From Nitrospinota bacterium (lineage in GTDB: Bacteria > Nitrospinota > Nitrospinia > Nitrospinales > VA-1): a stretch of DNA of 64,000 nt. Below the pieces are notes generated by a model. That model did no database searches, had not been told where the DNA came from, and saw only the letters and a program-made list of their open reading frames with translations. Both the position numbers and the translations under genes were made by a program. The stretch covers positions 141,678 through 205,677 of the forward strand of contig WAHY01000003.1 of NCBI GenBank assembly GCA_009873635.1. The letters are read 5' to 3'. This document shows positions 24,746 to 56,737 of this stretch, in pieces. Positions within the stretch are counted from its first letter, which is position 1. Every line of letters begins with the position of its first letter.

Positions 24746-24769
24746 TAGAAGGAAAAAGTTTTCCTTCTA
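24746..24769. repeat. 24-nt near-perfect palindrome
   Basis: TAGAAGGAAAA-AG-TTTTCCTTCTA, with 11-nt arms. It lies 47 nt upstream of the bestrophin-like gene's start. No T-run follows on either strand. Confidence 0.6.
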
Positions 24770-25276: not shown

Positions 25277-25544
25277 ATTTTCTCTCCCTAAAAATCCAAT
25301 TAAGTATACTACACTTACTGCAGTAAAAGAAAAAAGTTATTTCCCATGCACTTTCTTTAAAATTGCTTAATTGGTTACGCTTAATTTAAAACTAAAAGAA
25401 TGCCTAATGTTTTAAAACGAGTCGCTTGGGCTTTCAAACTGTTTTAAATAGTTTGTTTTATTATTTTAGTTGGAAAACAGGCAATTCAGCCATACAAAAA
25501 ATAGTACTGAAGTAAAAACTCTCCTTGTTTATAGGTAAATTAAG

Positions 25545-36162: not shown

Positions 36163-38691
36163 CTATCCTTTATTTCGAGGTATGGCCCGGCTCGTTAATC
36201 TTTTCTCTTCGGAAGCCTGAGCGGCATTTTTAGCGCAACGAAATCCATAGTCGTCCATGCGGCTTTTGGGGGTACCATTATTGCGAAATGAAGAATAAAT
36301 AAAACCTTTCAAGTCTCGCCATGACCCGCCACGAACACCCTTAAATTCCCCTCCAATGGGCCCTCTTGGGTTTGCATATTCTGATTGTTCTCTATAATAC
36401 TCGCGATCATACCAATCGTCCACCCATTCTTTGACGTTTCCCGCCATGTTGTAAAGCCCGTATGGACTTTTCCCCTCTGGGAGTGCCTGAACAGGAACCA
36501 TGACTTTGTGCTCGAGCTCATCAGTCCAGTTCTGGAAATAGCGAGCTCGAGTGCTGGAGGGTGCTGAGTTCCCCCAGGGGTATAATTGCGAATTTTCGCC
36601 ACGGGCCGCTTTTTCCCATTCAGCTTCAGTGGGCAGACGCTTTCCCTTCCATTTGCAATATGAGTCTGCGGCAAACCAGGTGACGTTGTTGATCGGGTAA
36701 TTTTCCAGGCCCGGTCGCGGGTGGAAACGACCATCATAGAAAAGCGTTCCAAACTTGTTATCAAGGTAATATCCTTTAACATTATTTTTTTCGTTCAAAA
36801 ATTCAGCAAACTCATTTGCTGACACCTCGTATTTATCTATCCAGTATCCGTCAAGATAGACACTATGTTCAGGAGCTTCATCTTCCAGGCTATCGCTGGC
36901 ACCCATTTTGAAAAAACCGGCAGGAACAAGGACCATATTGCCTTCCTCTTTTATTACATATTTATCACTCAGGTTTTTTTCCGACCTGTTGTTTTGCGTC
37001 TGCAGTTGCTGTAACAGGTCTCGGGTTTCTCTGCTAAAGGGTCCGTTTGCATCCATTTTTAAATAAGTTTGCAGACTGTCCTTGGATTTATTTTGTTTGC
37101 CTGCTTTGTAATAGATCCATCCCTTGAAAAAATGTAAATCTGCCCTGTGAGAACTGAGGTTTTCATTAATATCCTGAATCATGCCCTGGACTAGATGAAC
37201 AGGGTTTTCCGAGATAACCGTTTCATACCATTCCTTGGCTTTCATGTATTGTTTTTGCAGGAGTGAATAAAAGCCCAGGTTCATCTGTGCGAGCGCTTTG
37301 AGTTGGTCTGTTCCCATACTTTTCTTAATTCCCCGAAGAGTCCAGGCCGAAGCCATGGATAGATCACCAAGACGGTAATAGGTCCAACCCAGCTGGATAT
37401 AGTTTTTCAGATGCGCAGGGTCTTTATCTATGAGAAAACGGTATTGTTCAATCGCTCGCTGGAAATCTTCCATTCTGTAATAAGCTTCAGCCAACCCTTC
37501 ATTAATTTGGGCAGACTCAGGGAACCTCATTTGAATCTGTTTCAGGGTTTCAAGTGCCAATGCCTGTTGCCCCATTTTTCCGTAGGCGGAAGCTATATTA
37601 AGATGATTTTGTAAAGTTTCAGGCTGTATTCGGGCTAGCAGTTTAAGGTGCAGCAGCGATGAAGTGAGTCTGTTATTTTGCAGATACAGGTTTGCCAGCA
37701 TTCTATGAGCCGGGCTGAAACTGGGCTCAATTTGAACAACCTGCAAAAAGGCATCAATGGCTTTATCCGGATTGCCGGAATCCATGTGCACAAGGCCAAG
37801 GTTGAACAGGGTTGAAGTGTTATCAGGCTCTGCTTTTAAAGCCAGGCTGTAATGTTCGATAGCTTTTGCGGGCTTTTTTAATTCTGAATAAATGTTTGCC
37901 AGGTTGTTTTGAGCGTCAATTGACCCGGGGTTGATGGAGGTGGATATCTCCAAATAAAAAATAGCTCTTTCCGGTTTCTGGTTCTGATAATAAACCATTC
38001 CAACATTTGAAAAGTAAGCTCCAAGGGTTTGTCTGCCATTCAGGTTTTTCAGGAAATATGATTTTTTTTGATTGTCGGCCAAAACGCCAAAGCGTTGCTG
38101 GTAAAAACTGTCTGGATAGGAAGCTCCCCGCTCAGTGGTTTCAATATTGATACGCGTTCCTTTATTCTGATATCGAACAAAAAAGTGATTGGGCAGTGCA
38201 ACGCCATGTAGAGGAATGTTTAATTTTTGTCCTAGTATGAGATATAAAAGAGACAGGTTCATACAATAACCTTTGTGAGTTTTCAATAAACCGTGAAGGA
38301 ATAGTTCTTCAGGATTGACAGGAACTCCTCTTTCATCAACCTTATCTGTATAGCCAAATTTTCCGGTGTCATGGATGAGAGTTTTTAGCTCTCGGGTTAT
38401 TTCGTTAGGGTTGTTTTTTCCTTTTAGGTTTTGTTTGGCTGAGAGGCTAAGCTGATCAATTTTTTCTCTTAAGGGTACTAAATCTAAAGAAGGGTCCCAA
38501 TGCTTTGAAACTAAAAGAAGGGTTTCCAGCAGGTTTGGGGTTGTATTCGAACCCTGTTTTATCTCAAGTAGTTTTGTCTCAATCGCATCGTTGGGGGGGG
38601 TGCCATGGGCAATTATCGGTTGTAAGTTGTATAGGAATAAAAAAATAATAAATACGAAGTCATTAATAGTCTTAGTAGTTTTATTAGGCAT
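36163..38691 (-). CDS. Transglutaminase-like (SirB1-type) / TPR / FGE-sulfatase (SUMF1-family) fusion protein, exported
   Basis: 842-codon ORF. N-terminal signal/anchor. 'HKGYCMNLSLLYLILGQKLNIPLHGVALPNHFFVRY' (transglutaminase-like core). A long TPR array. The C-terminal 'YWIDKYEVSANEFAEFL', 'GLYNMAGNVKEWVDDWY' and 'RGGSW' are FGE-sulfatase domain blocks. Confidence 0.85.
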   Translation of the reverse strand: MPNKTTKTINDFVFIIFLFLYNLQPIIAHGTPPNDAIETKLLEIKQGSNTTPNLLETLLLVSKHWDPSLDLVPLREKIDQLSLSAKQNLKGKNNPNEITRELKTLIHDTGKFGYTDKVDERGVPVNPEELFLHGLLKTHKGYCMNLSLLYLILGQKLNIPLHGVALPNHFFVRYQNKGTRINIETTERGASYPDSFYQQRFGVLADNQKKSYFLKNLNGRQTLGAYFSNVGMVYYQNQKPERAIFYLEISTSINPGSIDAQNNLANIYSELKKPAKAIEHYSLALKAEPDNTSTLFNLGLVHMDSGNPDKAIDAFLQVVQIEPSFSPAHRMLANLYLQNNRLTSSLLHLKLLARIQPETLQNHLNIASAYGKMGQQALALETLKQIQMRFPESAQINEGLAEAYYRMEDFQRAIEQYRFLIDKDPAHLKNYIQLGWTYYRLGDLSMASAWTLRGIKKSMGTDQLKALAQMNLGFYSLLQKQYMKAKEWYETVISENPVHLVQGMIQDINENLSSHRADLHFFKGWIYYKAGKQNKSKDSLQTYLKMDANGPFSRETRDLLQQLQTQNNRSEKNLSDKYVIKEEGNMVLVPAGFFKMGASDSLEDEAPEHSVYLDGYWIDKYEVSANEFAEFLNEKNNVKGYYLDNKFGTLFYDGRFHPRPGLENYPINNVTWFAADSYCKWKGKRLPTEAEWEKAARGENSQLYPWGNSAPSSTRARYFQNWTDELEHKVMVPVQALPEGKSPYGLYNMAGNVKEWVDDWYDREYYREQSEYANPRGPIGGEFKGVRGGSWRDLKGFIYSSFRNNGTPKSRMDDYGFRCAKNAAQASEEKRLTSRAIPRNKG

Positions 38692-42324: not shown

Positions 42325-44940
42325 ATGAGTTTGGTTCGATATTGCAAATGCCATTATCATAATGGTGAGTCCGATCACTGGGGTTTCCTGGATCGCAAAG
42401 CTTTTGCCCAAAAGGGAGCTAAAGCACATTTTGCACCGGATACGCCTGTATTACCCAAACATCTTTTGCTTGATCTCAGTTTCGACTGGGAGGATGAGCG
42501 GGTTTGGGGAAGCACTACTTATGACTTGATGGTCAATGGGCAGGAAATCCAGGAAATTGAACTTGATGCGGTAAATTTGGAAATAGACCGGGTAGTTTCA
42601 GGACGCCGTACACTTGAATTTGAAAATACCGGTGATCGGATCATTGTATTTTTTGGGAAGACTCTCAAATATGGAAAGATAATTCAGATAAAGCTATTTC
42701 ATTCAGTCACTCATCCTTCTGCGGGGATATATTTTACCAAACCCGATGAATCATACCCGGAAAGATTTAAAACAGTCTGGACACAGGGACAGGATGAAGA
42801 TTCTAAATATTATTTCCCCTGTTTTGACCAGCCTAACTTTAAACAAACAACTGAAGTCAAGTTGCATCTGCCGGGGGGGATGTTCGGGTTGTCTAACGGC
42901 CGTCTTATAAAAAAGAAAACAAACTCCAGGGAGTCTTTTTTTCACTATAAGCTGGAAATTCCCTACTCCACTTACCTTCTCTCAATTGTCGCTGGGGAAT
43001 TTTCCGAATATAAGGGGCGAGCCGGGGAAGTGGATATCAAATGGTATGTTCAAAAAGGCCGTGAACGGGAAGGCCGCAATGCCTTTAAAGATACAGGAAA
43101 AATCATACGCTTTTTTTCCGACTACACGGGTTACCCATATCCCTATGAACATTATACCCAGATAGCTGTTCCAGAATTTGTGTTTGGTGGTATGGAAAAT
43201 TTTACTGTTACTACACAAACGGATCTGACCCTTCATAATGACAGGGCCAGCCTTGATATGGATTCAAATGGATTGGTTGCCCATGAAGCCGCCCATATGT
43301 GGTTTGGTGATATTGTTACAGCGAGAAGCTGGTCTCATGCATGGTTGCATGAATCATTCGCCACTTATTTTGACGCGCTCTATACACGTGAATCGAAAGG
43401 TGAGGACGAATTTCGATACCAGTTGTTGGAAGACGCTGAAACCTATTTTAGCGAAGATGCCCGCTACCGCCGTCCAATTGTTACCCATATTTACAAAGAA
43501 CCTATTGACTTGTTTGATGCCCACCTTTATCCGGGAGGGGCAGTAAGACTGCATTACTTGAAATCTCTTGTGGGGGAACCTCTTTTTCGTAAAGCTATTG
43601 CCCGATTTCTTAAACGTCATGAATATGGTTTGGTCGAAACAGTGGATTTGGTCCGGTGTCTTGAAGAAGTCAGTGGCAAGAACTTTGACGGATGGATGGA
43701 TCAATGGATTTTTCGCGGTGGTTACCCTGTGCTTGAAGTTTCTTACAAGTGGGGGGCAACCACTAAATTGACGGAAATAACGATAAAGCAAACTCAGAAA
43801 GCTGAAAAAAAAGAAGCTGAGCTGTTGTTCAAACTTCCCTTGAAAATTGAGTTCTATTTTTCCAGGGGGAGTGAAAAGTTTCCTCTTGAAATCAGAAATA
43901 AAGAAGAAAAGTTCAGTTTTCACCTCAAATCCAAACCGTTGTATTTCAGGATAGATCCGGACTATGAGTGTCCGTCAAAAAAGGTAAAGTTGGAAGTTTC
44001 ACGTTCAATTTTGCATGAGCAGCTGAAACGGGATAAAGACCCGATAGGACGTATCGAAGCGGCTCAAAACCTTGTAGCTAAATCATCGCAGCTTGATATC
44101 AAGATCCTCAGTCAGTGTCTCAAAAAAGAATCTCAATGGGGTGTGGCAAACCGTATCGCACGTGCATTGGGAAAAATTGGGGGAGAGTTTGCCAGGGATG
44201 GTTTGCTCAAAGCGGTGAACAGTGCTGATGCGAAAATTCGTCGGGGAATCGTTGAGGCTTTGGGGGAGTTTATAGGAGATGAGAAAGTTGCCCGTGCGCT
44301 TAAAAAAATTTCCAAGGGCGATCCGTCATATAGGGTAGAAGCTGAAGCAATGTCATCCCTCGGAAGGATCAAAGCGAAAAACAGTAGAACCTTTTTGGAA
44401 GGGTTTTTGGATAGGCCTTCTCACAATGATATCGGCAGGTCTGCGATTTTCAGGGCTTTGGCCAATCTTGAGGAAGAAAAGGCTTGGGAAACTTTGATCA
44501 AAGGTGCAGACTACGGTGCGGCTCGTAGTAGTCGTTTTTCGGCTATTCAGGGTGTCGCAAAGCTGGCAGGCCGGTTTGAACATCTTAAGCCGGAAGCCAT
44601 TAATATTTTAAAGAAATTTACCAGGGAAACTCGAGGAACTCCTTCAGCAACATTTAGAGGAAAACTGGCCGCCATTCAGGCAATGGGTGCGCTGGAAGAC
44701 CTTTCAGCAATTCCGACCTTGAGACGGCTGGCGGAAAGTGAAACCGATGGCCGTTTAAAAAGGAGGGCAGAGGAAACGATTGTCCGCCTGCTGGAGTCTG
44801 CAAAAAAACCAGGTGAAATGAAGTTGATACGGTCTGACCTTGATGACTTGTTGAAAGATAATAAAGCTTTGCGTGATCGATTGGATATAATTGAAAAACA
44901 AAAAGACGCTAAACAAAAATCCCAAAAGAAAAAAGGATAA
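42325..44940 (+). CDS. M1-family aminopeptidase (aminopeptidase N-like) with a C-terminal HEAT-repeat region
   Basis: 871-codon ORF. Exopeptidase motif 'GGMENF'. Zinc site 'HEAAHMWFGD...WLHESFATY'. C-terminal repeats 'RIEAAQNL', 'RRGIVEALGE', 'KLAAIQAMGAL'. Confidence 0.9.
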   Translation: MSLVRYCKCHYHNGESDHWGFLDRKAFAQKGAKAHFAPDTPVLPKHLLLDLSFDWEDERVWGSTTYDLMVNGQEIQEIELDAVNLEIDRVVSGRRTLEFENTGDRIIVFFGKTLKYGKIIQIKLFHSVTHPSAGIYFTKPDESYPERFKTVWTQGQDEDSKYYFPCFDQPNFKQTTEVKLHLPGGMFGLSNGRLIKKKTNSRESFFHYKLEIPYSTYLLSIVAGEFSEYKGRAGEVDIKWYVQKGREREGRNAFKDTGKIIRFFSDYTGYPYPYEHYTQIAVPEFVFGGMENFTVTTQTDLTLHNDRASLDMDSNGLVAHEAAHMWFGDIVTARSWSHAWLHESFATYFDALYTRESKGEDEFRYQLLEDAETYFSEDARYRRPIVTHIYKEPIDLFDAHLYPGGAVRLHYLKSLVGEPLFRKAIARFLKRHEYGLVETVDLVRCLEEVSGKNFDGWMDQWIFRGGYPVLEVSYKWGATTKLTEITIKQTQKAEKKEAELLFKLPLKIEFYFSRGSEKFPLEIRNKEEKFSFHLKSKPLYFRIDPDYECPSKKVKLEVSRSILHEQLKRDKDPIGRIEAAQNLVAKSSQLDIKILSQCLKKESQWGVANRIARALGKIGGEFARDGLLKAVNSADAKIRRGIVEALGEFIGDEKVARALKKISKGDPSYRVEAEAMSSLGRIKAKNSRTFLEGFLDRPSHNDIGRSAIFRALANLEEEKAWETLIKGADYGAARSSRFSAIQGVAKLAGRFEHLKPEAINILKKFTRETRGTPSATFRGKLAAIQAMGALEDLSAIPTLRRLAESETDGRLKRRAEETIVRLLESAKKPGEMKLIRSDLDDLLKDNKALRDRLDIIEKQKDAKQKSQKKKG

Positions 44941-44944
44941 TGGA

Positions 44945-45517
44945 ATGAATAAACCTTTTAATGATGATCCGGTAGATGTATTGGTGAAAAAATTTCTAAC
45001 CCAGAACGGAACGGTTTTGGATTTGAGATTGAAATATATTGGTGATGAAGGTCTGGAATATTTGGCTCAATGCCCTGAGTTGGTTGATCTGGAAGTTTTG
45101 AACCTGGAAAGGAATGAGATTACTGATAAGGGAATAGCTGCGCTGGCGAAATCTACCATAGTAACCAACCTTAAGGAGTTGCATCTTGAAAGAAACGATA
45201 TCGGAGATGCTGGAGTTCAAGCTATTTCAGAATCGGCTAATTTTTCTTATTTGCAATTCATTAACTTTTGGAAGAATAAGGTTGGGGCTGAAGGGACAAA
45301 AGCAATTGCGGCCTCAACGACTTTGGTTAATCTCAAGAACCTGGATTTAGCACAGAATAATATTGGCGATGATGGGGCCAAAGCTCTTGCCGAAAGCAAT
45401 AGCCTGTCAAACCTGGAATTACTTGAGGTGTTTGGCAGTGGATTGACCGATGAAGGCAAAAAACTACTCAAGGAATCCACCGCTTTCCCCAAACTACAGA
45501 CACTGGTTTTGGAGTGA
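44945..45517 (+). CDS. Ribonuclease-inhibitor-type leucine-rich repeat protein
   Basis: I took the ATG at 44945, 5 nt after the upstream stop. The ORF-track start at 44891 would overlap the aminopeptidase. About 28-residue repeats: 'LEVLNLERNEITDKGIAALA', 'LKELHLERNDIGDAGVQAIS', 'LKNLDLAQNNIGDDGAKALA'. Confidence 0.75.
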   Translation: MNKPFNDDPVDVLVKKFLTQNGTVLDLRLKYIGDEGLEYLAQCPELVDLEVLNLERNEITDKGIAALAKSTIVTNLKELHLERNDIGDAGVQAISESANFSYLQFINFWKNKVGAEGTKAIAASTTLVNLKNLDLAQNNIGDDGAKALAESNSLSNLELLEVFGSGLTDEGKKLLKESTAFPKLQTLVLE

Positions 45518-45550
45518 GTTGTTTTTATGCAACCTCCTCCTGGGCAATGT

Positions 45551-45943
45551 TTACATATTACCTGGATGTTTCTTTAAAAGGTATTTATGATAATCGCTGA
45601 TGGATAATGTCCCCAGCATTTGCCCATGCTCTGTTATAGCCAGATGATGGATTTAATGATCCCGCATCACTTGCGCAGCCTTTTCCATGCTTTCCTGGCT
45701 TTCCAGTTTGACGAGTGGAAAGCTCATGACTTCAGCAACCTGAATTTTTTCCGGGTCAAGGTTTTCAGAGACTACTTTCTTGCTGATGTCGTTATTGGTG
45801 ATGATTCCAATGAATTTTCCTCCCGCTTCGACAAGCAAAGAGTGAATACCATTGTCGTGCATGGTATGTGCTGCCTCCAAAACAGTTTCTGTTGGGCTGA
45901 TACTTAAAAGAGATTCTGCAAGATAGTTGAGGATTCTTTCCAT
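45551..45943 (-). pseudogene. CBS-pair protein interrupted by an in-frame TAA
   Basis: The ORF 45653..45943 ends '...KAAQVMRDH' at TAA (45653..45655). The same frame continues 'IHHLAITEHGQMLGTLSISDYHKYLLKKHPGNM' to a TAA at 45551..45553. This is exactly the missing second half of CBS motif 2 (h-HLPV-x-E-x-G-x-l-G-x-l-S-x-x-D). Confidence 0.75.
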
Positions 45944-46049
45944 TTCGATTCACCCGATTTCTAAATATTAATTGCCTGCAAGATTCATTTGGTCCCGTTA
46001 TTTATAGCTGTCTACGCATGCTATATGGTTAAACTTTCCTGAATTCAAA

Positions 46050-47333
46050 TCAATGCGAATTTATTGATATTTTTAAATTGTGCAGCCTGTTTATAAGGGG
46101 AGGAGCCCAGTTGGTTTTACGCGCATTCAATAATTCTTCTGCTTGTTGCATAACTGGTTTCAGGAGTGTAAGGTCTCCAAGCTTATGGTAAGTTTCGGCG
46201 AGGTCTATCAGGATGTGGGCTTCCTCCTTCCTGTTTTCGACATATTTTGCTTTAGCCAGAGCCTGGATGAAAAAAGCTGTCGCATCCTCATAGTCACCTA
46301 GTTTCTGGTAGTTAAGCCCTATGCCAACCAATAATTCAAGCACCTTATCATGATCTTCCTGTTGGCGGTAACTTTCCAGTGCTTTTAAATAACAGTCGAT
46401 AGCTTTTGAAATTATATTTTTCTTAACGTAAACGAATCCGAGTCCGTTATACGAACTGCCAATAAATGCGCTGAACCCTTTTTCTGTGGCAAGAGTTTTT
46501 TGTTCTTCAAAATATTTCAGGGCTTGATCAAGTTTGCCGGAAATTGCAGATGCATCACCAAGGTTGGCAAGCAGGCTGCATTGTTCTTTGCTATCGTCTA
46601 ACTCTATTGCAATGTCCAGTTCCTGAAGAAAGAAATCAATCGCTCTCTGGGTTTGTCCCAGTCTGCTGTATGCCAGGCCCAGGGCTGAAAGCGCGTTTTT
46701 TTCAGCCAGCCTGTCACCTATGCCACGGGCTTTTTTGAGAAAAATGGTTTCAGATTCTACCATTTTACGCAGCTCAAGCATTCCGGAAGATTCCAGGCCA
46801 AATGGTTTTCCGGGTTTTGCATCAATTTCAGCCATCCTTTCAAAGTTCTCATCAACGGTAAGAGACATTCTGGTTTCAACGTCTTTTTTGAAATTCAATT
46901 CCTCTTCTATATCATCCAGAACTTCCTGAAAGTCTTCCTGTAAAAACGCGCTTCTCAAAGAGTAGGGATTGAACTTGCGAAGATATTCCCAATAAGGGTC
47001 AATGCCAATCGGAATCATGGCTTCGTCAAGTAGCAGAGGAACAATCATCATATCCAGGTTTATGGCCGTCTCAATCTCCAGTTGAGTGCGTTCTTTCAGG
47101 GTAGAGTCGCAATCAGGGCTTTCTGAGTCTTTAGCATCGGATCCATTTTTTGAAATTACTATGATTAGTGCATCACAGAGTGAAAGAATTTTGTTGAGAG
47201 TTTGTGGCAAGAAATCCTCAGGCTCTTCAAGACCCAGGCAAGTGGCATTTAAAGCAATGCGACAATCTTGAATAATGTTTTGAACTATATTTATTGAATT
47301 GGGATTGTTGTGGCTGAAATAAAGAGTAGGCAT
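46050..47333 (-). CDS. TIR-like N-terminal domain / TPR-repeat protein
   Basis: 427-codon ORF. The N-terminus 'TLYFSHNNPNS...LSLCDALIIVISKNGS...TQLEIETAINLDMMIVPLLLDE' follows the TIR/TIR-like pattern ([FY]-[IF]-S-[HY], hydrophobic strand + S, E-containing helix, 'IIPV'-like strand). The C-terminal half is TPR ('ALSALGLAYSRLGQTQRAIDFF', 'LANLGDASAISGKLDQALKYF', and others). Confidence 0.6.
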   Translation of the reverse strand: MPTLYFSHNNPNSINIVQNIIQDCRIALNATCLGLEEPEDFLPQTLNKILSLCDALIIVISKNGSDAKDSESPDCDSTLKERTQLEIETAINLDMMIVPLLLDEAMIPIGIDPYWEYLRKFNPYSLRSAFLQEDFQEVLDDIEEELNFKKDVETRMSLTVDENFERMAEIDAKPGKPFGLESSGMLELRKMVESETIFLKKARGIGDRLAEKNALSALGLAYSRLGQTQRAIDFFLQELDIAIELDDSKEQCSLLANLGDASAISGKLDQALKYFEEQKTLATEKGFSAFIGSSYNGLGFVYVKKNIISKAIDCYLKALESYRQQEDHDKVLELLVGIGLNYQKLGDYEDATAFFIQALAKAKYVENRKEEAHILIDLAETYHKLGDLTLLKPVMQQAEELLNARKTNWAPPLINRLHNLKISINSH

Positions 47334-47544
47334 TCTGATTATCTGAATTTATATCCCCGGAATTGGAGAGGTCCATTATCTTCTTTAAAATACCACTCAA
47401 TCTTTACTTTTGAATAGTTCTTTTAAGCGTGCCTGGCAACGAGGCTCCTTGGTTAATTCAGTCATCACTTTTTCGTTTACATTCATATTGTTCCTCAGCA
47501 ATCTGTTCAACATCTTGCTTCAGGTCTTTGAAGGTTTTGTCGAT

Positions 47545-47811
47545 CTATTTTAATCTCAGAAGAGCGGTAGAAACATCAATCGGGTCTGAGCCATTTTTCA
47601 GGAGGGGGCCGCTGGCATACTCGACTATTTTTGGTAGTGTTTTCTGATAAGCGAGAATAAGGGATAGAATCCTTTCTCTTTCTTCCTCAGGGCCTTTTTC
47701 GCCAGGTTCAATGTCAGGAGTTTCTTTGACTTTGGTCTCAAAGAAAGACAACTGGTTTTCCAAAGACGCAATATGTTTTTTCAGCTCTGGTAGAGCTTTA
47801 GAATCAATCAT
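47545..47811 (-). CDS. Hypothetical coiled-coil protein (possible read-on past TAG to 47458)
   Basis: 88-codon ORF rich in Glu/Lys/Leu. After its TAG (47545..47547) the frame stays open for 28 more charged, heptad-like codons ('IDKTFKDLKQDVEQIAEEQYECKRKSDD'). Confidence 0.45.
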   Translation of the reverse strand: MIDSKALPELKKHIASLENQLSFFETKVKETPDIEPGEKGPEEERERILSLILAYQKTLPKIVEYASGPLLKNGSDPIDVSTALLRLK

Positions 47812-48110
47812 CTTTTATATTTTCTCCCCGTAAGTAAACTCTTTTACAGACGTTATAAAGTTTGGGGAAGCAAGAAATACCTGTTTTTTTACAGCCATTG
47901 CTTGAAAAATTTATACAGCTTTCAAAATTTGTCTTGGGATTATTGAAATAAATTATTTAAAAACAAAATAGCCCCAATATTTTTGAAGGTTATATCGAAT
48001 TTCCAATATTGACTATTTTTGAGTTCTAAGAAAAACAAGAGGTGGTCGAATAATTGCAACCCAAATAAAAACATATAGTTAAAGGGGTGGGTGGATTTTT
48101 GGTGGAATTT

Positions 48111-50258
48111 TTAGATGACTTCTATCAGCTCCATATAGTTTCCAAAAAACCGTTTTAGAGCGTCGTTTAGAGGTTGGTGTTTGGGGTCTTTGAGTTCCGG
48201 GTCTTTTTCTATGACGCAGATTGCTTCTTTTCGGGCTATCTCTAATATCTTGATGTCCCGGATCAGGTTGGCGATTTTTAAAATAGGCAATCCCGATTGT
48301 CGGGTTCCCATAAAGTCTCCGGGACCACGTATTTTTAAATCTTCTTCTGCGATGACAAATCCATCCCCAGACTTTTGCATTGCACTCATCCTCGCTTGTC
48401 CGTCCTCGGATATAGGGTGATAGGCCATGAGTAAGCAACGGGATGCATGTTTTCCACGACCTACACGTCCGCGTAGCTGATGCAGTTGTGCAAGTCCAAA
48501 CCTTTCTGCGTGCTCAATAATCATGATGGAAGCGTTGGGGACATCAATGCCTACTTCAATTACCGTGGTAGAAACTAAGATCTGGATTTCTTTATTAAGG
48601 AAGCGTGACATTATATTTTGCCGTTCTTCTTTTTTAAGCTTTCCATGTATCAAACAAGCCTTAAATTCAGGAAATTGTTCCTGAATATATTCGAAGACAG
48701 TAACCGCTGCATTAAGATCGATAGATTCTGATTCTTCGATTAATGGACAGACTACAAATGCCTGCCTTCCTTCTTGTAACTGTTTTTCCAGAATACTGTA
48801 GGCTTTTTCGCGCCGGTTCTCAAAAAACAGGTCGGTGATAATTTCCTGTCTTCCCGGGGGGAGTTCATCTAAAAGCGACACATCCATATCCCCGTAGAGG
48901 GTGAGGGCAAGGGATCTGGGAATGGGTGTTGCGGTCATAATAAGAAGATGCGGGTGGGCTCCTTTTTTCCCAATGGCGTCTCTTTGCATGACTCCGAAGC
49001 GGTGTTGTTCATCTATAACAGCCAACCCCAGATTTTTAAATTGTATATCCTTTTGGATCAGGGAGTGGGTCCCAACTACGATATGTGTTTTTCCTTCCTC
49101 TATATCTTGAAAGTATCTTTGGCGCTCTTTGCCCTTGAGAGCACTTGTAACCAGGCTGAGTTTGACACCTAATTTTTCACAATAAGGTCGAATGTTTAAA
49201 TAATGTTGTTCTGCAAGAATTTCGGTCGGAACCATTAGCGCTGATTGAGTGCCATTATCCACTGCCGTTAACAGTGCGGTGAGGGCTACGATGGTTTTTC
49301 CACTTCCTACATCACCCTGGATCAAACGGTTCATCGGTTTGTCTTTTTCCAGGTCCTCCATAATTTCTCCAAGAACTTTTTTTTGAGCTCCTGTTAACTT
49401 GAAGGGTAGTAACTTTACAAATCGTTTGATGAGTTCATCACGGGTTTTAAAAGGGATTCCTTTGCGTTCAACCCCAGATTGTTTTTTCCTGAAGGCCAGT
49501 CCCAACTGGATCAGGAAGAGCTCTTCAAAAACCAGTCGCTTTTGTGCAGGAGTTTTAAAAAGATCCAGCTCTTTAAGTGAAGAGCCTTTGGTTGGAAAAT
49601 GAGCTTGGAAAATTGCTTCGGATCGAGAGGGAAAATTATGTTGCCGGATCAGGCTTTCAGGAAGAAATTCTTCGATGAGATGCAGGTATTTATCGAGGAC
49701 GTTTTTAATAATATTCCGCATGGATTTGAGGTGAAGACCATCTGTAACATGGTAAACGGGTACAATTTTCCCAATTTCGAGTGATTGGATACTTTCTCCG
49801 GACACCTTCTCGGTTTCCGGGTGGATGATCTCCAGCCCTGAGCGTTTGTTGATATTGGGTTTTCCTGAAAGAATTATTTTTTGTCCCGTTTGAAACTTTT
49901 CTTTCATATAAGTTTCGTTAAATTTGAACCATTTCGCACGGATGACTCCTGTTTCATCCTGAATAATAGCTTCAAATATTCTTTTTTGACGCCCCATGAA
50001 TATTGTTCCGGAGCTTAGGACTTCTCCCGTAAGTGTGACATATTCGCCGGGCATAGCCTGCGAGATTTTTTTAAACTGTGTGCGGTCTTCATACCTGAAA
50101 GGTAAAAAATATAGACAATCCTCAATACTTGTCAGTCGCAGTTTTTCAAGCAGAATCGCTTTTCTTGGGCCAACCCCTTTTATATATTGCATGGGGTCGT
50201 TCAGGGAAGGTGTGTGTTTCATGGATCTAATATTATCGCGCAAGGGATTTGGGAGCAA
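48111..50258 (-). CDS. recG: ATP-dependent DNA helicase RecG
   Basis: 715-codon ORF. Wedge/OB N-terminus. Helicase motifs 'GDVGSGKT', 'DEQHRFG', 'MTATPIPR', 'QLHQLRGRVGRG'. Confidence 0.95.
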   Translation of the reverse strand: MLPNPLRDNIRSMKHTPSLNDPMQYIKGVGPRKAILLEKLRLTSIEDCLYFLPFRYEDRTQFKKISQAMPGEYVTLTGEVLSSGTIFMGRQKRIFEAIIQDETGVIRAKWFKFNETYMKEKFQTGQKIILSGKPNINKRSGLEIIHPETEKVSGESIQSLEIGKIVPVYHVTDGLHLKSMRNIIKNVLDKYLHLIEEFLPESLIRQHNFPSRSEAIFQAHFPTKGSSLKELDLFKTPAQKRLVFEELFLIQLGLAFRKKQSGVERKGIPFKTRDELIKRFVKLLPFKLTGAQKKVLGEIMEDLEKDKPMNRLIQGDVGSGKTIVALTALLTAVDNGTQSALMVPTEILAEQHYLNIRPYCEKLGVKLSLVTSALKGKERQRYFQDIEEGKTHIVVGTHSLIQKDIQFKNLGLAVIDEQHRFGVMQRDAIGKKGAHPHLLIMTATPIPRSLALTLYGDMDVSLLDELPPGRQEIITDLFFENRREKAYSILEKQLQEGRQAFVVCPLIEESESIDLNAAVTVFEYIQEQFPEFKACLIHGKLKKEERQNIMSRFLNKEIQILVSTTVIEVGIDVPNASIMIIEHAERFGLAQLHQLRGRVGRGKHASRCLLMAYHPISEDGQARMSAMQKSGDGFVIAEEDLKIRGPGDFMGTRQSGLPILKIANLIRDIKILEIARKEAICVIEKDPELKDPKHQPLNDALKRFFGNYMELIEVI

Positions 50259-50385
50259 GAAGTTCTATGACGATTGAGCGTTGACAGGAAAAAAATGTGG
50301 AAGTATCCTTAAATAAAAGGCTTATACTTACCTCACTGCTTTTTTTGACTATTGTTTGGAGAAAAATGGAGGTTGCATTTCTGCC

Positions 50386-52632
50386 ATGAAAGTTCAGGAT
50401 TTGACAGACAAGTTATTGGAATACATGCCCGATGCTGATGTCGACATCATTCTGAATGCTTATATTTATTCCGCAAAGGCTCACCGGGGCCAGAGTCGCA
50501 GATCTGGTGAGGCTTATATTTCCCATCCCCTTGAAGTTGCGCATAATCTCGTCAAGTTAAAGCTGGACCCTACAACAGTGGCTGCGGGCCTATTGCACGA
50601 CACCATTGAGGACACCCTTTCTACCCCCGAAGAAATTCAGGAACTGTTTGGTGACGAAATTTTCCAGCTTGTGGATGGGGTGACTAAAATCAGCCAGATC
50701 CATTTTTCCAGTCATGAAGAGAGTCAGGCAGAGAACTATAGAAAGATGATCTTCGCCATGGCTCAGGATATTCGTGTGGTTTTGATCAAGCTTGCCGATC
50801 GGGCCCATAATATGCAGACCCTGGGTTCCCTCTCAGAGGAAAGGCAGAGGAGAATTGCGCGTGAGACTCTGGAAATTTTCGCTCCCATTGCCAACCGTCT
50901 GGGAATTGGGTGGTTGAAATCAGAATTAGAGAATGGGTCATTCCGCTACCTCTACCCTGAAGAATACCGAACCATTGAAGAAAAAGTTGCAAAAAGTAAA
51001 GACAGCCGCGCTCAGTATCTGGAAAAAGTTACCTCCCGGTTGATGAAGGAGTTGCAAAAGGGAGAGATTGAAGGAAAAGTTGAGGGGAGGCCCAAACAAT
51101 TTTACAGTATTTATAAAAAAATGGTGGACCAGAACATTAGTTTTGAGGATGTTTATGACCTGATCGGCGTACGGGTTTTAACGAAATCCCTGGGTGACTG
51201 TTATTCGGTTTTAGGGTTGGTGCATTCTCTATGGAAGCCCATTCCCGGAAAATTTAAGGACTATATTGCCATGCCCAAGCCTAATATGTACCAGTCTCTT
51301 CACACAACAGTGATTGGTCCGAAGGGTGAAAGGGTGGAGGTGCAGATTCGTTCAGAGGAAATGGAAAAGGTTTGCCAGGGAGGAATAGCGTCACACTGGC
51401 GTTATAAAGAAAAAACCGGCGATGATGATAAGCCTATGGACGAACAATTATCATGGGTTCGGCTTCTTCTTGAAAACCAGAAAGACTTGAAAAACCCTAA
51501 AGAATTTCTCAATGCATTCAAGGTTAATTTGTTCCCGGATGAAGTTTATGTGTTTACCCCTGGCGGGGATGTTATTGCGCTCCCTTACAACGCGACTCCT
51601 GTTGATTTCGCATTTCAGGTTCATACAGATGTTGGATGCCATTGTCATTCGGCTAAGGTAAATGGAAAGGTTGTTCCGCTGCGTTATAAACTAAAGGATG
51701 GGGATCAGGTTGAAATAATCACAGCAGAGGAAGGATCCCCCAATCGCGAATGGCTGGCCTTTGTGAAAACTTCCAAGGCAAGAAACCGAATATCTCACTT
51801 CATCAATACAGAAGAGCGTTCAAGAAGTTTGAAGTTAGGGAAGGAGCTTCTTGAAAAAGAGATTCTCGGATACGACCTGGATCCTGAAACTGAAATGGGA
51901 GGAGAGGCCTTTGAAGAAGCCGCACAGGCATGTGGTTTTAATTCTACGGATAGCCTGTTGATGGGAATAGGAATCGGAAAATTATCGACTCACCATGTCA
52001 TCGAAAAATTGATTCCTAAAGAAAAGTTGGAGGGCAAAGAGTCGCGTGACAAAATGCTGATAAAACTTAAGGAAAACCGGCCTTCTAAATCCTCACGTAA
52101 TGCGATCAAGGTTCAATGTTTCAATGAAAATATTTCCATTAGAATCGGCAAATGTTGTCATCCACTCCCTGGTGAACCGATCATAGGTTATATTACGCGA
52201 GGCCGGGGAGTTACAGTGCACCATATTGACTGCCCAAGTGTCGGAAACGTGATCAATGATCCGGAAAGACTGGTTGGAGTAGAATGGGAAGCAGGCTTGA
52301 ATGTGATTTACCAGGCCCATATTGCCATTGTCGCGACGGACAAGCCCGGAATAATGGCTACTATCAGTCAGTCCTTCGCAGAATGCGGGATCAACATCAC
52401 CCGGGCAAACATTCAACAGGGATCAAACCAAAGGGCATACTTCGACCTTTCCATAGAGATTCAGGACGTGGAACACTTGAATCAAATTCTTGAAAAAATA
52501 CGCCAGCTTGATGATGTGATTTACCTGGAGCGGATCAAAGACTTTAACAAAAATTCACCGGTCAAAAACAGGCTGGAGGCCCTGGGTGAAAAACTGGGGG
52601 CGAAGGGAGAGCGGGAACTGAGCCCTACCTGA
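50386..52632 (+). CDS. rel: Bifunctional (p)ppGpp synthetase/hydrolase (RelA/SpoT homologue)
   Basis: I preferred the ATG at 50386 (GGAGG 13 nt upstream). The ORF track offers a TTG at 50356. HD hydrolase 'HPLEVA...LHDTIEDT'. Synthetase '[12 protein letters not shown]'. TGS '[25 protein letters not shown]'. C-terminal ACT-like region. Confidence 0.95.
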
Positions 52633-55351: not shown

Positions 55352-56737
55352 TTAATGCGCTACAGGGAGTTCGGAAAGTTTCTTTTTGGCTTCTTCATTG
55401 AAAGGGTCGATTTCCAGAATGGTTTTCAATTCCTTTTCCGCTTCCGGGAAGCGTTGGCTTTTTTTATGGATCTCGTAAAGTTTCCAATGCATGGAAAGGA
55501 AGTCGACACCCTGTTTCTGTGAAAGCTCGAACACTTCCAGGGCTTCGTTCAAACGATTGAGCGCGAACAGGGCATTGCCCAGATTGAAATTGGCAATGGC
55601 AAACTCCGGGTCCAGACTCAGAGCTTTCTTTAACAAAGGGATTGCTTCTTCGGCATGGCCTTGTTTGTTCAGAGCGGCTCCCAGATTGGAAAGCGCCTGG
55701 ATAAAATTAGGATAAACCTGAACAGCTTTTTTAAATATTTTCACGGCTTCATCTAGCTTACCTTTGCGAAAATAATATCCACCAAGATTTGATAAGGCTT
55801 CAGGAAAGTCAGGACTTAATTCAATGGTTTTTTCATATTGGGCAATGGCTTTTTCAGCCATCCCCAGGTCTCTGTACGCAACGGCGAGGTCGTAATGGGC
55901 CAGAATAAAATCTGGGTCCTTTGCCAGTATTTTTTCAAACTCGGTGATGGCCTTGTTGGGATCCCCCAGGCCGTATAAAAAATAATTTCCCCGGTAATAC
56001 ATGGCGTTCAGGGAAGTCCTGTCTTCATTGAATAGATCGTGGAGTGAAAAAGAAGTTTTTGTGTCTAAAAACTCCTTAACGGTATTAATGGGAAGGGCAA
56101 GGTTGATAGATCTGCCTTCCACTGTGGCTAATCCTATAACCTGATTGGATTCATTGACGACGGGTCCTCCGCTGAACCCTGGGCCAAATGCAGTGGTGGT
56201 ATAAATAAAGGGTATTTGGGGGTCAGACTGAGGATGTATCCCAAGAACAAAACCATAAGTCTGTGCAATCTGACCCTCTATCTTATCTTTCTGCTCGGTC
56301 ACCTCGGCGGAGAGATAGCCCAGTGCACTGGTATAGTCATAGGGCTTCAGGGATGAGGAGTTGCCAATTTCCAATGTAGAATAAAAACCTTCCGTTAGTT
56401 TTAAGATGGCAAAATCTTTGGCCCTGTCCACCTTGAACACACCTGTTATTTTGGAACGGGACCCATTGGGGAAATGAACTTCAATGCTGTACGCGTCTAC
56501 CAGAACATGGTAATTGGTGACAAGGGTTCCTTCGGGCCGTGCCACAAAACCAGACCCGGTTCCAACGGTTTTCCCGGCCTTGTCTTTAGCGATGAGCAAA
56601 GCCACCGCGTTTTTATTGACTTCATAAGAATTTGCCGTCCCTGAAAAGGTCAACAATCCAATGATGAAAATAAATAGTGTGGTCTGAGTTAAACGTTTGC
56701 TCATGGTATATAATTTCGGCCTGAAATACCGCTCCAA
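55352..56737 (-). CDS. Trypsin-like (S1/S1C) serine protease fused to TPR repeats, exported
   Basis: 461-codon ORF. Signal/anchor. 'GSGFVARPEGTLVTNYHV' (His), 'GFSGGPVVN' (Ser). The C-terminal half is TPR ('AHYDLAVAYRDLGMAEKAIAQYEKTIELSPDF', and others). Confidence 0.8.
   Translation of the reverse strand: MERYFRPKLYTMSKRLTQTTLFIFIIGLLTFSGTANSYEVNKNAVALLIAKDKAGKTVGTGSGFVARPEGTLVTNYHVLVDAYSIEVHFPNGSRSKITGVFKVDRAKDFAILKLTEGFYSTLEIGNSSSLKPYDYTSALGYLSAEVTEQKDKIEGQIAQTYGFVLGIHPQSDPQIPFIYTTTAFGPGFSGGPVVNESNQVIGLATVEGRSINLALPINTVKEFLDTKTSFSLHDLFNEDRTSLNAMYYRGNYFLYGLGDPNKAITEFEKILAKDPDFILAHYDLAVAYRDLGMAEKAIAQYEKTIELSPDFPEALSNLGGYYFRKGKLDEAVKIFKKAVQVYPNFIQALSNLGAALNKQGHAEEAIPLLKKALSLDPEFAIANFNLGNALFALNRLNEALEVFELSQKQGVDFLSMHWKLYEIHKKSQRFPEAEKELKTILEIDPFNEEAKKKLSELPVAH

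What the first reader, a model, noticed from the sequence alone, without database searches (positions are those of the whole stretch)
45551..47811. TIR-like/TPR protein flanked by a coiled-coil protein and a CBS-pair gene, a candidate nucleotide-signalling or defence-like module
**Seen directly**
- Three co-directional minus-strand genes: an 88-aa coiled-coil protein, a 427-aa protein with a TIR-like N-terminal domain and about 6 TPR units but no NTPase domain, and a nonsense-interrupted CBS-pair protein.

**Established knowledge**
- Bacterial TIR domains are frequently NAD-consuming signal generators or effectors in antiphage systems.
- CBS pairs bind adenine nucleotides.

**Inference**
- The trio may form a sensor/effector set that is not among the described TIR systems (Thoeris, CBASS-TIR, TIR-STING, Avs-like). 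Those have different partners.
- The TIR assignment rests only on motif order read by eye.
Basis: inference. Interest (0 to 1): 0.55.

Follow-up and report, generated by a model that had tools for sequence, protein, structure and literature searches.

The report
Stand-alone TIR–TPR protein of Nitrospina
The middle gene does encode a protein with a real but very divergent TIR domain joined to TPR repeats, conserved across marine nitrite-oxidising Nitrospinaceae, but its two neighbours are a broken gene remnant and a dispensable CBS gene, so there is no three-gene defence module.

Summary
The 427-aa protein (46050-47333, minus strand) has a genuine N-terminal TIR domain. Pfam TIR_2 is sub-threshold, but profile-profile comparison with bona fide TIR_2 domains gives 98.9%. 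An AlphaFold model (pLDDT 84) matches SARM1, SPARTA and TIR-STING TIR domains best. Glu86, aligned on SARM1's catalytic Glu, is invariant in 53 orthologues. The C-terminal half is a 12-helix LGN/KLC-like TPR solenoid with no NTPase.

The three-gene module is not supported.
- **88-aa ORF:** it is the stump of a 622-aa gene. Strains with 99% identical DNA keep that gene intact. The window carries a GAG>TAG stop and a 1,454-bp deletion between two AATGTAAAC repeats.
- **CBS stop:** it is a real AAA/TAA polymorphism within the species.
- **CBS linkage:** CBS adjoins the TIR-TPR gene in only 6 of the 62 related loci surveyed, and it is missing in the next closest clade.

Other clades have quite different neighbours (thiD-tenA, HAMP sensor, carbonic anhydrase). 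The context is housekeeping (recG, relA/spoT, M1 peptidase), with no PADLOC system and no plasmid or phage relatives.

The gene is a vertically inherited, Nitrospinaceae-restricted, stand-alone TIR-TPR protein annotated only as a "TPR protein". Single-protein TIR-TPR defence systems (E. coli TIR-II) are already described.

The parts
46050..47333 (-). Intact gene for the 427-aa TIR-TPR protein (identical to MZG29882.1, annotated 'tetratricopeptide repeat protein')
   Evidence: ORF. Full-length orthologues at 37-69% identity in 5 GTDB Nitrospinaceae genomes and 57 metagenome loci. Exact match in the public protein collection.
46953..47333 (-). TIR domain, residues 1-127 (strands at 3-8, 31-33, 55-60, 96-102, 124-126). 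It has a low-confidence loop at 64-75 and a BB-loop region about 5 residues shorter than in TIR_2.
   Evidence: AF2 model pLDDT 84.4, pTM 0.81. Foldseek top hits are SARM1 TIR (E=1.4e-4, TMt 0.70), SPARTA TIR-APAZ and TIR-STING. hhalign to TIR_2 domains gives 98.9%. Pfam TIR_2 reaches only 15.8 bits against a cut-off of 28. Alignment with TIR_2 proteins is.
47076..47078 (-). GAG codon of Glu86, the putative catalytic glutamate
   Evidence: Invariant in 13 and then 53 distinct orthologues. Aligned on the Glu of SARM1 'KDWVHKEIVTAL' and on the R-x-E-I Glu of TIR_2 domains. Codon checked.
46788..46952 (-). Long helix (residues 128-167) and flexible linker (about 158-182, pLDDT below 50) joining the TIR and TPR domains; no NTPase
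   Evidence: Full-length AF2 model. No P-loop motif. No NTPase family in Pfam.
46053..46787 (-). TPR solenoid, residues 183-427, 12 helices; the most conserved part of the protein
   Evidence: Pfam TPR_12 E=7e-23 and other TPR families. Foldseek best hits are LGN/Pins, BtubC and kinesin light chain TPRs, E down to 4e-10. Many invariant residues in 53 orthologues.
47400..47811 (-). Pseudogene remnant of a 622-aa gene of unknown function ('p622'). Codons 1-112 lie at 47811-47476. The last 30 codons lie at 47489-47400 in another frame.
   Evidence: tblastn with the intact L003 protein. blastn to loci. The 622-aa gene is intact in conspecific contigs L063-L066.
47545..47547 (-). TAG nonsense codon ending the 88-aa ORF (GAG, Glu89, in conspecific strains)
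47475..47483 (-). Deletion junction: the single remaining copy of AATGTAAAC. Conspecific L063 has two copies 1,454 bp apart. The deletion shifts the frame.
   Evidence: Contigs L067 and L068 end exactly at this point.
45551..45943 (-). CBS-pair gene (130 codons) carrying a nonsense allele
   Evidence: Translation. Pfam CBS with two stretches. 74% identical over 127 aa to the intact 128-aa L003 protein.
45653..45655 (-). TAA at CBS codon 97. The same TAA occurs in independent assemblies L063, L067 and L068. L064, L065 and L066 have AAA (Lys).

Best explanation
Only one functional unit is present: a stand-alone, cytoplasmic, two-domain TIR-TPR protein. It belongs to an orthologous family confined to Nitrospinaceae that is inherited vertically at stable chromosomal positions.

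**Shown**
- The N-terminal 127 residues are a divergent TIR domain that keeps an invariant Glu86 at the catalytic position.
- A long helix and a flexible linker follow it.
- A 12-helix LGN/KLC-type TPR solenoid forms the C-terminal half. Its residues are the most conserved in the protein.
- The flanking '88-aa gene' is the stump of a 622-aa gene, destroyed by a nonsense mutation and a 1,454-bp repeat-mediated deletion.
- The CBS-pair gene carries a nonsense allele that segregates within the species.
- Neither neighbour is needed to keep the TIR-TPR gene intact.

**Inferred mechanism**
- The TPR groove binds a peptide or protein ligand.
- That binding controls self-association of the TIR domains.
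- Self-association switches on Glu86-dependent cleavage of the N-glycosidic bond of NAD(P)+ or a related nucleotide.
- The logic matches single-protein TIR-TPR systems (E. coli TIR-II) and SARM1.

It is open whether the output serves phage defence or a lineage-specific physiological switch. The family-wide conservation and housekeeping context lean towards a resident, non-mobile function.

The confidence of 0.45 is for the whole statement, including the inferred enzymatic, ligand-gated mechanism. Taken separately, I put the TIR fold at about 0.95 and 'stand-alone, not a three-gene module' at about 0.9.
For: **TIR homology and fold**
- Whole-library phmmer of residues 1-199 gives only 19 hits in 1.84e9 representatives: 12 orthologues or fragments, plus 7 proteins that Pfam classifies as TIR_2.
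- hhalign scores 98.9%, E=2.5e-17.
- AF2 pLDDT is 84, and the Foldseek top 17 are all TIR domains of SARM1 or SPARTA.
- The PDB profile search aligns Glu86 on SARM1's catalytic Glu. E642A is the standard catalytic-dead control (PMC11025887).
- Glu86 is invariant in 53 orthologues.

**TPR**
-.

**Stand-alone status**
- CBS is adjacent in 6 of the 62 loci surveyed and absent in the clade at 68-69% identity.
- Neighbours differ by clade: thiD+tenA at a 14-bp gap in 14 loci, a divergent TPR gene in 18, a HAMP sensor in 4, and carbonic anhydrase/SlyD in L005.
- Synteny type tracks protein clade: 0.74-0.98 identity within types against 0.46-0.73 between types.
- Conspecific contigs show the p622 and CBS knock-outs are strain polymorphisms, while the TIR-TPR gene stays intact with 4 substitutions.

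**No defence or mobile signal**
- PADLOC gives only generic-domain hits in the neighbourhood.
- Flanking genes are housekeeping: recG, relA/spoT, batA/DUF58, M1 peptidase.
- There are no tRNA genes in the window, and the N-terminal domain has no plasmid or phage match.

**Precedent for the mechanism**
- PMC11350192 and 10.1101/2023.05.26.542521.
Against: **Catalysis is not demonstrated**
- Apart from Glu86, the usual NADase-associated residues are missing.
- The Trp of WxxxE is replaced by a nearly invariant Arg82.
- The 'SYRR' arginines after strand A are absent.
- The BB-loop region is about 5 residues shorter. The interpretation of these motifs rests on my own knowledge.
- Pfam TIR_2 is below threshold.
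- The window's copy departs from near-invariant residues next to the active site: R84Q, G113P, K116E and a 2-residue deletion.

**Other gaps**
- No ligand for the TPR domain is known.
- No oligomerisation evidence exists beyond a predicted long helix.
- A family-wide core gene is atypical for an abortive-infection effector.
- The survey of genomes was by pattern scan, not exhaustive.
Confidence: 0.45

Rival explanations
1. The TIR domain is a non-catalytic interaction module, as in animal TLR and MyD88 adaptors. On this reading the protein is a TPR-based scaffold that assembles a housekeeping complex specific to Nitrospinaceae.
For: - The WxxxE Trp and the SYRR arginines are lost, and the BB loop is shortened.
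- The TPR half is more conserved than the TIR half: mean top-residue frequency 0.69 against 0.61.
- The gene is distributed like a core gene, in housekeeping contexts.
- The TPR best resembles LGN/Pins and KLC scaffold domains.
Against: - Glu86 is invariant in 53 orthologues spanning 37-69% identity and sits exactly at the catalytic position. From my own knowledge, adaptor-type TIRs generally do not keep this Glu.
- The nearest sequence and structure relatives are enzymatic TIRs: SARM1, SPARTA and TIR-STING.
Confidence: 0.27
2. The 88-aa protein, the TIR-TPR protein and the CBS-pair protein form a three-gene nucleotide-signalling or defence module.
For: - The three ORFs are co-directional and adjacent.
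- In one Nitrospina sub-clade the order p622, TIR-TPR, CBS is conserved with intact genes: L003, L004, L011, L012, L028 (all three genes intact) and L013 (p622 cut by the contig end).
- Conspecific L064-L066 also carry all three intact.
- CBS pairs bind adenine nucleotides (established knowledge).
Against: - The 88-aa ORF is a nonsense- and deletion-truncated fragment.
- The CBS stop is real and segregating, seen in three further independent assemblies besides the window.
- CBS is absent in 9 loci of the next closest clade, where the LRR gene follows within 15-96 bp, and in all clades at 42-49% identity.
- p622 is independently shortened in L007, L008, L010 and L029 while the TIR-TPR gene stays intact.
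- Neither p622 nor CBS hits any PADLOC model.
Confidence: 0.04
3. It is a mobile, single-gene abortive-infection system of the E. coli TIR-II type. It happens to be fixed in Nitrospinaceae, and the TPR senses a phage protein.
For: - TIR and TPR sit in one polypeptide with no NTPase, as in part of the TIR-II systems, which were validated against phages and are said to be the most widespread TIR system (PMC11350192).
- The protein evolves faster (61-69% identity) than its neighbours RecG, LRR and M1 peptidase (80-86%) in the same loci.
Against: - There is no defence-island context and no mobile-element marks.
- Position is stable within clades, and the protein tree follows synteny.
- The gene is present in every large Nitrospinaceae assembly encountered, including N. 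gracilis 3/211.
- There are no relatives on plasmids or phages.
- TPR residues are strongly conserved rather than diversified.
- Homology to the E. coli TIR-II protein could not be tested because the sequence is not held.
Confidence: 0.2
4. The N-terminal domain is not a TIR but another flavodoxin-like fold, such as a CheY-like or nucleoside 2-deoxyribosyltransferase/MilB-like domain.
For: - Pfam TIR_2 is below the gathering score.
- Some flavodoxin-like and other Rossmann-like chains appear lower in the Foldseek list (ranks 18-19, 24 and others).
- The analogous BcTpr N-domain was described as MilB-like.
Against: - The top 17 Foldseek hits are TIR domains.
- hhalign to Pfam-verified TIR_2 domains covers 150 columns at 98.9%.
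- phmmer against 1.84e9 proteins finds TIR_2 proteins and nothing else outside the family.
Confidence: 0.03

Closest known systems
E. coli 'TIR-II' antiphage system (TIR + TPR, single protein or two proteins; Nat Commun 2024, PMC11350192)
   Same: TIR and TPR repeats are combined, and they can lie in one polypeptide. Most members have no ATPase domain (nearly 30% also carry one). The TIR active site was required for defence in that study.
   Different: - The Nitrospinaceae family lies in housekeeping, clade-stable contexts and appears family-wide.
- No sequence relationship to TIR-II could be tested because that sequence is not held.
- The TIR here is below the Pfam threshold and lacks the WxxxE Trp.
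BcTpr of the Bacillus cereus BcTir/Tpr system (bioRxiv 10.1101/2023.05.26.542521)
   Same: The layout is almost identical. BcTpr is 415 aa, with an N-terminal N-glycosidase-fold domain (1-189) whose catalytic Glu is at position 86, followed by a 12-helix TPR (190-415). It is reported to be an NADase making a cADPR isomer, with the TPR tuning catalysis. The protein here is 427 aa, with Glu86 and 12 helices at 183-426.
   Different: - BcTpr works with an adjacent TIR-only gene (BcTir). No second TIR is in the window.
- BcTprN was described as MilB-like, whereas the domain here matches TIR structures best.
- Whole-library phmmer found nothing outside the Nitrospinaceae family except seven TIR_2 proteins of other architectures.
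SARM1 TIR domain (NAD+ hydrolase) and bacterial TIR_2 (PF13676) domains of the 'FISYRR...RxEI' type
   Same: - Best structural match is SARM1 (TMt 0.70), which is also the best PDB profile match.
- Closest sequence relatives are TIR_2 domains.
- The catalytic Glu, the 'IxPxLxD' strand D and the following 'LP' motif are shared.
   Different: - Arg replaces the Trp four residues before the Glu.
- There are no RR residues after strand A.
- The BB loop is shorter.
- The domains fused to the TIR differ: SAM/ARM in SARM1, TPR here.
Avs / bacterial NLR-like STAND proteins with a TIR effector and TPR sensor
   Same: An N-terminal effector TIR and C-terminal TPR sensor repeats.
   Different: No STAND NTPase lies between them. 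The 55 residues between the domains are a helix plus a disordered linker, with no Walker A motif.
Thoeris (ThsB TIR + ThsA effector)
   Same: A TIR with a conserved Glu as a possible signal generator.
   Different: PADLOC flagged no Thoeris component (ThsA) or other known defence system nearby, and the gene partners vary by clade.

Membership tests
TIR domain (Pfam TIR_2, PF13676) | Sequence match to the Pfam model at or above the gathering score | tested here: not met
   14.9-15.8 bits, E=0.02-0.04, against a cut-off of 28. Only 2 of 13 orthologues match at E<=1.
TIR domain (Pfam TIR_2, PF13676) | Profile-level homology to accepted members over the whole domain | tested here: met
   hhalign of 13 orthologue N-termini against 7 domains that all pass the TIR_2 gathering score: 98.9%, E=2.5e-17, 150 columns. 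phmmer E=7.5e-5 to 4.5e-4 for the whole 1.84e9-protein library. The 7 domains were chosen from the query's own hits, so the E-value is optimistic.
TIR domain (Pfam TIR_2, PF13676) | TIR fold (five-stranded parallel sheet with alternating helices) | tested here: met
   AF2 pLDDT 84.4, five strands and five helices in the TIR order. Foldseek top 17 PDB hits are TIR domains, TM 0.6-0.7 on the target.
Enzymatic (NADase-type) TIR | Conserved catalytic Glu in helix C | tested here: met
   Glu86 is invariant in 53 orthologues. It aligns on the SARM1 catalytic Glu (E642A control in PMC11025887) and on the TIR_2 'RxEI' Glu.
Enzymatic (NADase-type) TIR | Aromatic residue (Trp/Phe) four residues before the Glu (WxxxE) and basic residues after strand A | tested here: not met
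   Arg82 is nearly invariant at Glu-4. 'YFS[LH]xx' replaces 'ISYRR'. That these residues matter for NAD+ binding is from my own knowledge.
Enzymatic (NADase-type) TIR | NAD+ cleavage or cyclisation activity | not testable with these tools
   Needs biochemistry.
E. coli TIR-II single-protein TIR-TPR defence system (PMC11350192) | TIR and TPR in one system, with or without an ATPase | tested here: met
   Definition.
E. coli TIR-II single-protein TIR-TPR defence system (PMC11350192) | Sequence homology to the validated E. coli protein | not tested
   The sequence or accession is not in the held text, and no supplements are held.
E. coli TIR-II single-protein TIR-TPR defence system (PMC11350192) | Antiphage activity; variable or mobile genomic context | tested here: inconclusive
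   Activity is not testable. The context is housekeeping and clade-stable, with no PADLOC system and no plasmid or phage relatives. This argues against a mobile defence gene but does not exclude defence.
BcTir/Tpr system (10.1101/2023.05.26.542521) | Adjacent TIR-only partner gene plus a glycosidase-TPR protein | tested here: not met
   There is no second TIR in the 64-kb window by HMM search of all six frames. Upstream and downstream genes are p622 and CBS.
Avs / STAND NLR-like | Central STAND NTPase (Walker A/B) between effector and repeats | tested here: not met
   No NTPase Pfam hit, no GxxxxGK[ST] motif, and only a helix plus linker between the domains.
Thoeris | ThsA-type effector (SIR2/SLOG or Macro/TM) encoded next to the TIR gene | tested here: not met
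   PADLOC finds no Thoeris component among 10 neighbours or in the trio. Neighbours vary by clade.
CBS-pair (Bateman) protein | Two tandem CBS motifs in one uninterrupted polypeptide | tested here: not met
   Two CBS stretches are present, but they are split by TAA at codon 97 in the window. The intact allele, with AAA, exists in conspecifics L064-L066.

The most novel reading that the evidence does not exclude
On this reading the family is a resident, non-immune bacterial TIR enzyme. It would be a vertically inherited core gene of Nitrospinaceae whose conserved TPR groove senses an endogenous peptide or protein. Its Glu86 TIR domain would then convert NAD(P)+ or a related nucleotide into a signal, or deplete it, as part of normal physiology in these nitrite oxidisers, for example stress, dormancy or redox control. 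It would use an unusual RxxxE active site and a shortened BB loop.
Probability: 0.2. Interest if true: 0.6.

Novelty: new member of a known kind. Interest (0 to 1): 0.3.

Why it matters
- **Annotation:** public records call this protein only a 'tetratricopeptide repeat protein'. Recognising a TIR domain with a conserved catalytic Glu corrects that for a whole family in Nitrospinaceae, the main known marine nitrite oxidisers.
- **Biology:** most characterised bacterial TIR proteins are mobile defence genes. A TIR-TPR that is clade-stable and apparently family-wide could be a test case for a physiological TIR function.
- **Tractability:** the orthologue in cultured N. gracilis 3/211 (CCQ89487.1 / WP_042251427.1) makes this testable.
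- **Method:** adjacent small ORFs can be gene debris, and comparison with conspecific contigs settles that quickly.

Tried and rejected
- **Word-indexed protein search with the N-terminal 201 aa:** no hits. With the 13-sequence profile it returned only fragments of the same family, so it added no distant relatives.
- **Exact look-up of the window protein on contigs:** not on record. Cluster members P0021 and P0024 worked instead.
- **PADLOC on the trio and on ten neighbours:** only generic TPR, helicase, RelA, NUDIX and protease domain hits, no system.
- **NCBIfam:** only generic TPR and CBS similarity far below the cut-offs.
- **tblastn of the TIR domain against plasmids and phages:** no match.
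- **Promoter and terminator scan of 45300-48300:** no more sites than in shuffles, so uninformative about operon structure.
- **Literature:** Burroughs & Aravind 2020 (J Bacteriol) could not be read. Supplements of both key papers are not held, so no direct sequence comparison with BcTpr or E. coli TIR-II was possible.
- **Sequencing error or stop-codon recoding for the CBS TAA:** rejected, because the same TAA recurs in three independent assemblies and alternates with AAA.
- **Mis-assembly for the p622 deletion:** unlikely, because the junction is a 9-bp repeat, too short to mislead assemblers. It is not fully excluded.
Full report
**1. What is in the sequence**

Listing ORFs over 43000-50500 confirms three co-directional minus-strand ORFs.
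- 47545-47811 encodes 88 aa.
- 46050-47333 encodes 427 aa.
- 45653-45943 encodes 96 aa.

The 96-aa ORF continues in frame past a TAA (45653-45655) to a second stop, ending at 45551. Read through, it is a 130-codon CBS pair (Pfam CBS E=8e-20, two stretches).

The 427-aa protein has strong TPR matches (TPR_12 E=7e-23). It has no NTPase family hit and no Walker A motif.

The surroundings are housekeeping genes.
- Upstream on the same strand: recG (48111-50258).
- Beyond recG: relA/spoT, a NUDIX gene and an M28 peptidase.
- On the other side: a convergent 190-aa LRR_6 protein, an M1 aminopeptidase with HEAT repeats, and a batA/DUF58 cluster.

GC content is unremarkable here, and there are no tRNA genes in the window.

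**2. Origin**

A scan of one genome per GTDB species found five relatives of the 427-aa protein. All are Nitrospina or Nitrospinaceae MAGs, at 45-69% identity over the full length. The window protein is identical to MZG29882.1, 'tetratricopeptide repeat protein [Nitrospinota bacterium]'. An orthologue exists in cultured Nitrospina gracilis 3/211 (CCQ89487.1 / WP_042251427.1). Nobody has annotated a TIR domain in it.

**3. Is the N-terminal domain a TIR? Yes, a divergent one**

*Sequence evidence*
- Pfam TIR_2 is the only hint, and it is below threshold (14.9-15.8 bits against 28).
- An exhaustive phmmer search of residues 1-199 against 1.84 billion representatives found only 19 proteins.
- Twelve of these are orthologues or fragments of them. 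Seven score E=7.5e-5 to 4.5e-4, and all seven pass the TIR_2 gathering score.
- A profile of 13 orthologue N-termini aligns with these seven domains over 150 columns at 98.9% probability, E=2.5e-17. That E-value is optimistic, because the seven were picked from the query's own hits.

*Structure evidence*
- An AlphaFold2 model of residues 1-165 is confident (pLDDT 84.4, pTM 0.81). It has the strand-helix order of a TIR.
- The best 17 PDB matches are the TIR domains of SARM1 (E=1.4e-4, TM 0.70 on the target) and of SPARTA TIR-APAZ. TIR-STING, RPP1, RRS1 and Roq1 TIRs follow.

*The catalytic Glu*
- A profile search of PDB sequences is weak (E=1.3), but its top six matches are all SARM1 TIR chains. 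It places Glu86 on the Glu of SARM1's 'KDWVHKEIVTAL'.
- That Glu is the catalytic E642, whose E642A mutant is the usual dead control (PMC11025887).
- Glu86 is invariant in 13 and then in 53 distinct orthologues.

*Departures from enzymatic TIRs*
- The residue four positions before the Glu, the Trp of 'WxxxE', is a nearly invariant Arg82.
- The 'SYRR' basic pair after strand A is absent.
- The BB-loop region is about five residues shorter.
- The window's own copy is the odd one out at three near-invariant TIR positions (R84Q, G113P, K116E) and has a two-residue deletion.

So the fold and the key Glu are established. Catalytic competence is not.

**4. The rest of the protein**

The full-length model (pLDDT 83) has four parts.
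- The TIR domain, residues 1-127.
- One long helix, 128-167.
- A disordered linker, with low confidence across 158-182.
- Twelve helices, 183-426.

Foldseek matches the helical half to LGN/Pins, BtubC and kinesin light chain TPR domains (E down to 4e-10). These are peptide-binding solenoids. The TPR half holds most of the invariant residues of the family. That fits a conserved ligand better than an arms race; this step is inference.

**5. The '88-aa coiled-coil protein' is gene debris**

In L003 and L004 the gene between recG and the TIR-TPR gene encodes a 622-aa protein ('p622'). It has no Pfam or PADLOC hit.
- Its residues 1-112 align to window 47811-47476.
- Its last 30 residues align to 47489-47400, in another frame.

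Contigs from other samples with 99% identical DNA and nearly the same TIR-TPR protein (L063-L066) carry the 622-aa gene intact. Relative to them the window has two lesions.
- GAG>TAG at codon 89 (47545-47547).
- A 1,454-bp, frame-shifting deletion between two copies of AATGTAAAC. One copy is left, at 47475-47483.

Two other contigs (L067, L068) end exactly at this junction. That suggests both variants coexist in nature.

p622 is also shortened, to different extents, in L007, L008, L010 and L029, while the TIR-TPR gene next to it stays intact.

**6. The CBS gene**

Codon 97 is TAA in the window and in the independent assemblies L063, L067 and L068. It is AAA (Lys) in L064-L066. The stop is therefore a real, segregating null allele, not a sequencing error. 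The intact form is an ordinary 128-aa CBS pair.

**7. Linkage survey**

I collected 62 loci: 5 from genomes and 57 from metagenomes. I searched them with the neighbour proteins and clustered all flanking ORFs.

- **Sub-clade at 61-62% identity:** CBS follows the TIR-TPR gene in only six loci, L003, L004, L011, L012, L013 and L028.
- **Clade at 68-69% identity (L001, L002, L006-L010, L029, L031):** there is no CBS at all. The LRR gene follows within 15-96 bp.
- **Deeper clades, thiamine neighbours:** thiD and tenA follow 14 bp downstream in 14 loci.
- **Deeper clades, other neighbours:** a divergent TPR gene lies upstream in 18 loci, a 4HB-HAMP sensor follows in 4, a duplicated-domain protein of unknown function lies 12 bp upstream in 6, and L005 has carbonic anhydrase and SlyD.

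Synteny type follows the protein's own clades: 0.74-0.98 identity within types against 0.46-0.73 between types. This indicates a gene that stays put and is inherited vertically.

Further checks also found nothing linked or mobile.
- No PADLOC system lies nearby.
- There is no second TIR in the window.
- The TIR domain has no plasmid or phage relatives.

**8. How it most likely works**

*Shown:* a stand-alone TIR-TPR protein with an invariant Glu at the TIR catalytic position. It is kept intact while both neighbours are lost.

*Inferred:*
- The TPR groove binds a peptide or protein ligand.
- That binding governs TIR self-association, perhaps through the long helix.
- Self-association in turn switches on Glu86-dependent N-glycosidic cleavage of NAD(P)+ or a related nucleotide.

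I put about 0.45 on this enzymatic, ligand-gated model. I put about 0.27 on a non-catalytic scaffold. Within the enzymatic model, defence against physiology is open.
- The clade-stable, apparently family-wide distribution and the conserved TPR point towards a resident role.
- The faster evolution than its neighbours (61-69% against 80-86% identity in the same loci) is compatible with conflict.

**9. Comparison with known systems**

- **E. coli TIR-II.** TIR plus TPR without an NTPase is a described kind. TIR-II is an experimentally validated TIR+TPR system, said to be the most widespread TIR system in prokaryotes. Its two domains can lie in one protein, and nearly 30% of members add an ATPase (PMC11350192).
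- **BcTpr.** A preprint describes BcTpr, 415 aa, with an N-terminal glycosidase-fold domain whose catalytic Glu is at position 86, followed by a 12-helix TPR. It makes a cADPR isomer and depletes NAD+, and it works with an adjacent TIR-only protein (10.1101/2023.05.26.542521). The layout is strikingly like the protein here, but no partner TIR is present and I could not compare sequences.
- **Not a member of:** Avs/STAND (no NTPase), Thoeris (PADLOC flags no ThsA or other Thoeris component nearby) or BcTir/Tpr (no partner TIR).

**10. Verdict**

- The TIR call is correct.
- The three-gene module is wrong.

What remains is an unannotated, divergent, Nitrospinaceae-specific member of the TIR-TPR kind. 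It is of moderate interest, mainly because it looks like a resident rather than a mobile TIR gene and has a cultured host for testing.

Noticed in passing
L003:3683-5551; L004:3934-5802; L063:1069-2937; window 47400-47811: 'p622' is a 622-aa protein with no Pfam or PADLOC match, found only between recG and the TIR-TPR gene in the Nitrospina clade. It is intact in some lineages. It has been cut down independently to different stumps in L007, L008, L010, L029 and the window. It looks like a gene being lost repeatedly.
   Followed up: partly
L067 and L068, position 1 (equivalent to window 47483): Two contigs from different samples end exactly at the 9-bp repeat that forms the deletion junction in the window. 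This is what an assembly-graph branch would give if deleted and undeleted variants coexist in the population.
   Followed up: no
L003:5636-5974 (also L012, L028): A 112-aa cytochrome c7-like gene (Pfam Cytochrome_C7 E=1e-17) sits between p622 and the TIR-TPR gene in one sub-lineage only. It is absent from the window and from L004.
   Followed up: partly
L043:3938-4741 and 13 other loci (e.g. L036, L039, L046, L047): In a clade at about 45% identity the TIR-TPR gene is followed by thiD (phosphomethylpyrimidine kinase) and then, in 6 of these loci, tenA; the gap before thiD is 13-16 bp in ten of the 14 loci. The spacing suggests co-transcription with thiamine salvage genes.
   Followed up: partly
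window 46050-47333 compared with 42325-45517 and 48111-50258: In the same syntenic loci the TIR-TPR protein is only 61-69% identical to its orthologues, while the flanking RecG, LRR and M1 peptidase are 80-86% identical. The TIR half diverges most (49-57%).
   Followed up: partly
window 47076-47084 and 46990-47010 (residues 84, 113, 116): The window's species departs from residues that are at least 96% conserved in the family (R84Q beside the catalytic Glu, G113P, K116E). It also has a 2-residue deletion in the loop after strand D. All 7 of its deviations from well-conserved columns lie in the TIR/linker half, none in the TPR.
   Followed up: partly
window 44891-45517 (+): The mechanical ORF (208 aa, TTG start) overlaps the end of the M1 peptidase gene. 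Orthologues start at 'MNKPFNDDP', so the real gene is probably 44945-45517 (190 aa). It is a ribonuclease-inhibitor-type LRR_6 protein, always found beside the M1-HEAT aminopeptidase in this clade.
   Followed up: partly
window 23200-25500: A low-GC stretch (0.31-0.38 against about 0.43) lies between an M18 aminopeptidase and moaA. It holds three ORFs (100, 259 and 116 aa) with no Pfam match. It may be a small foreign insert.
   Followed up: partly
window 36163-38691 (-) and 55352-56737 (-): Two other large TPR fusion proteins lie in the window. One is transglutaminase-like + TPR + FGE-sulfatase domain (842 aa). The other is trypsin-like peptidase + TPR (461 aa), which weakly resembles PADLOC RT-Protease and LmuA protease domains.
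   Followed up: no
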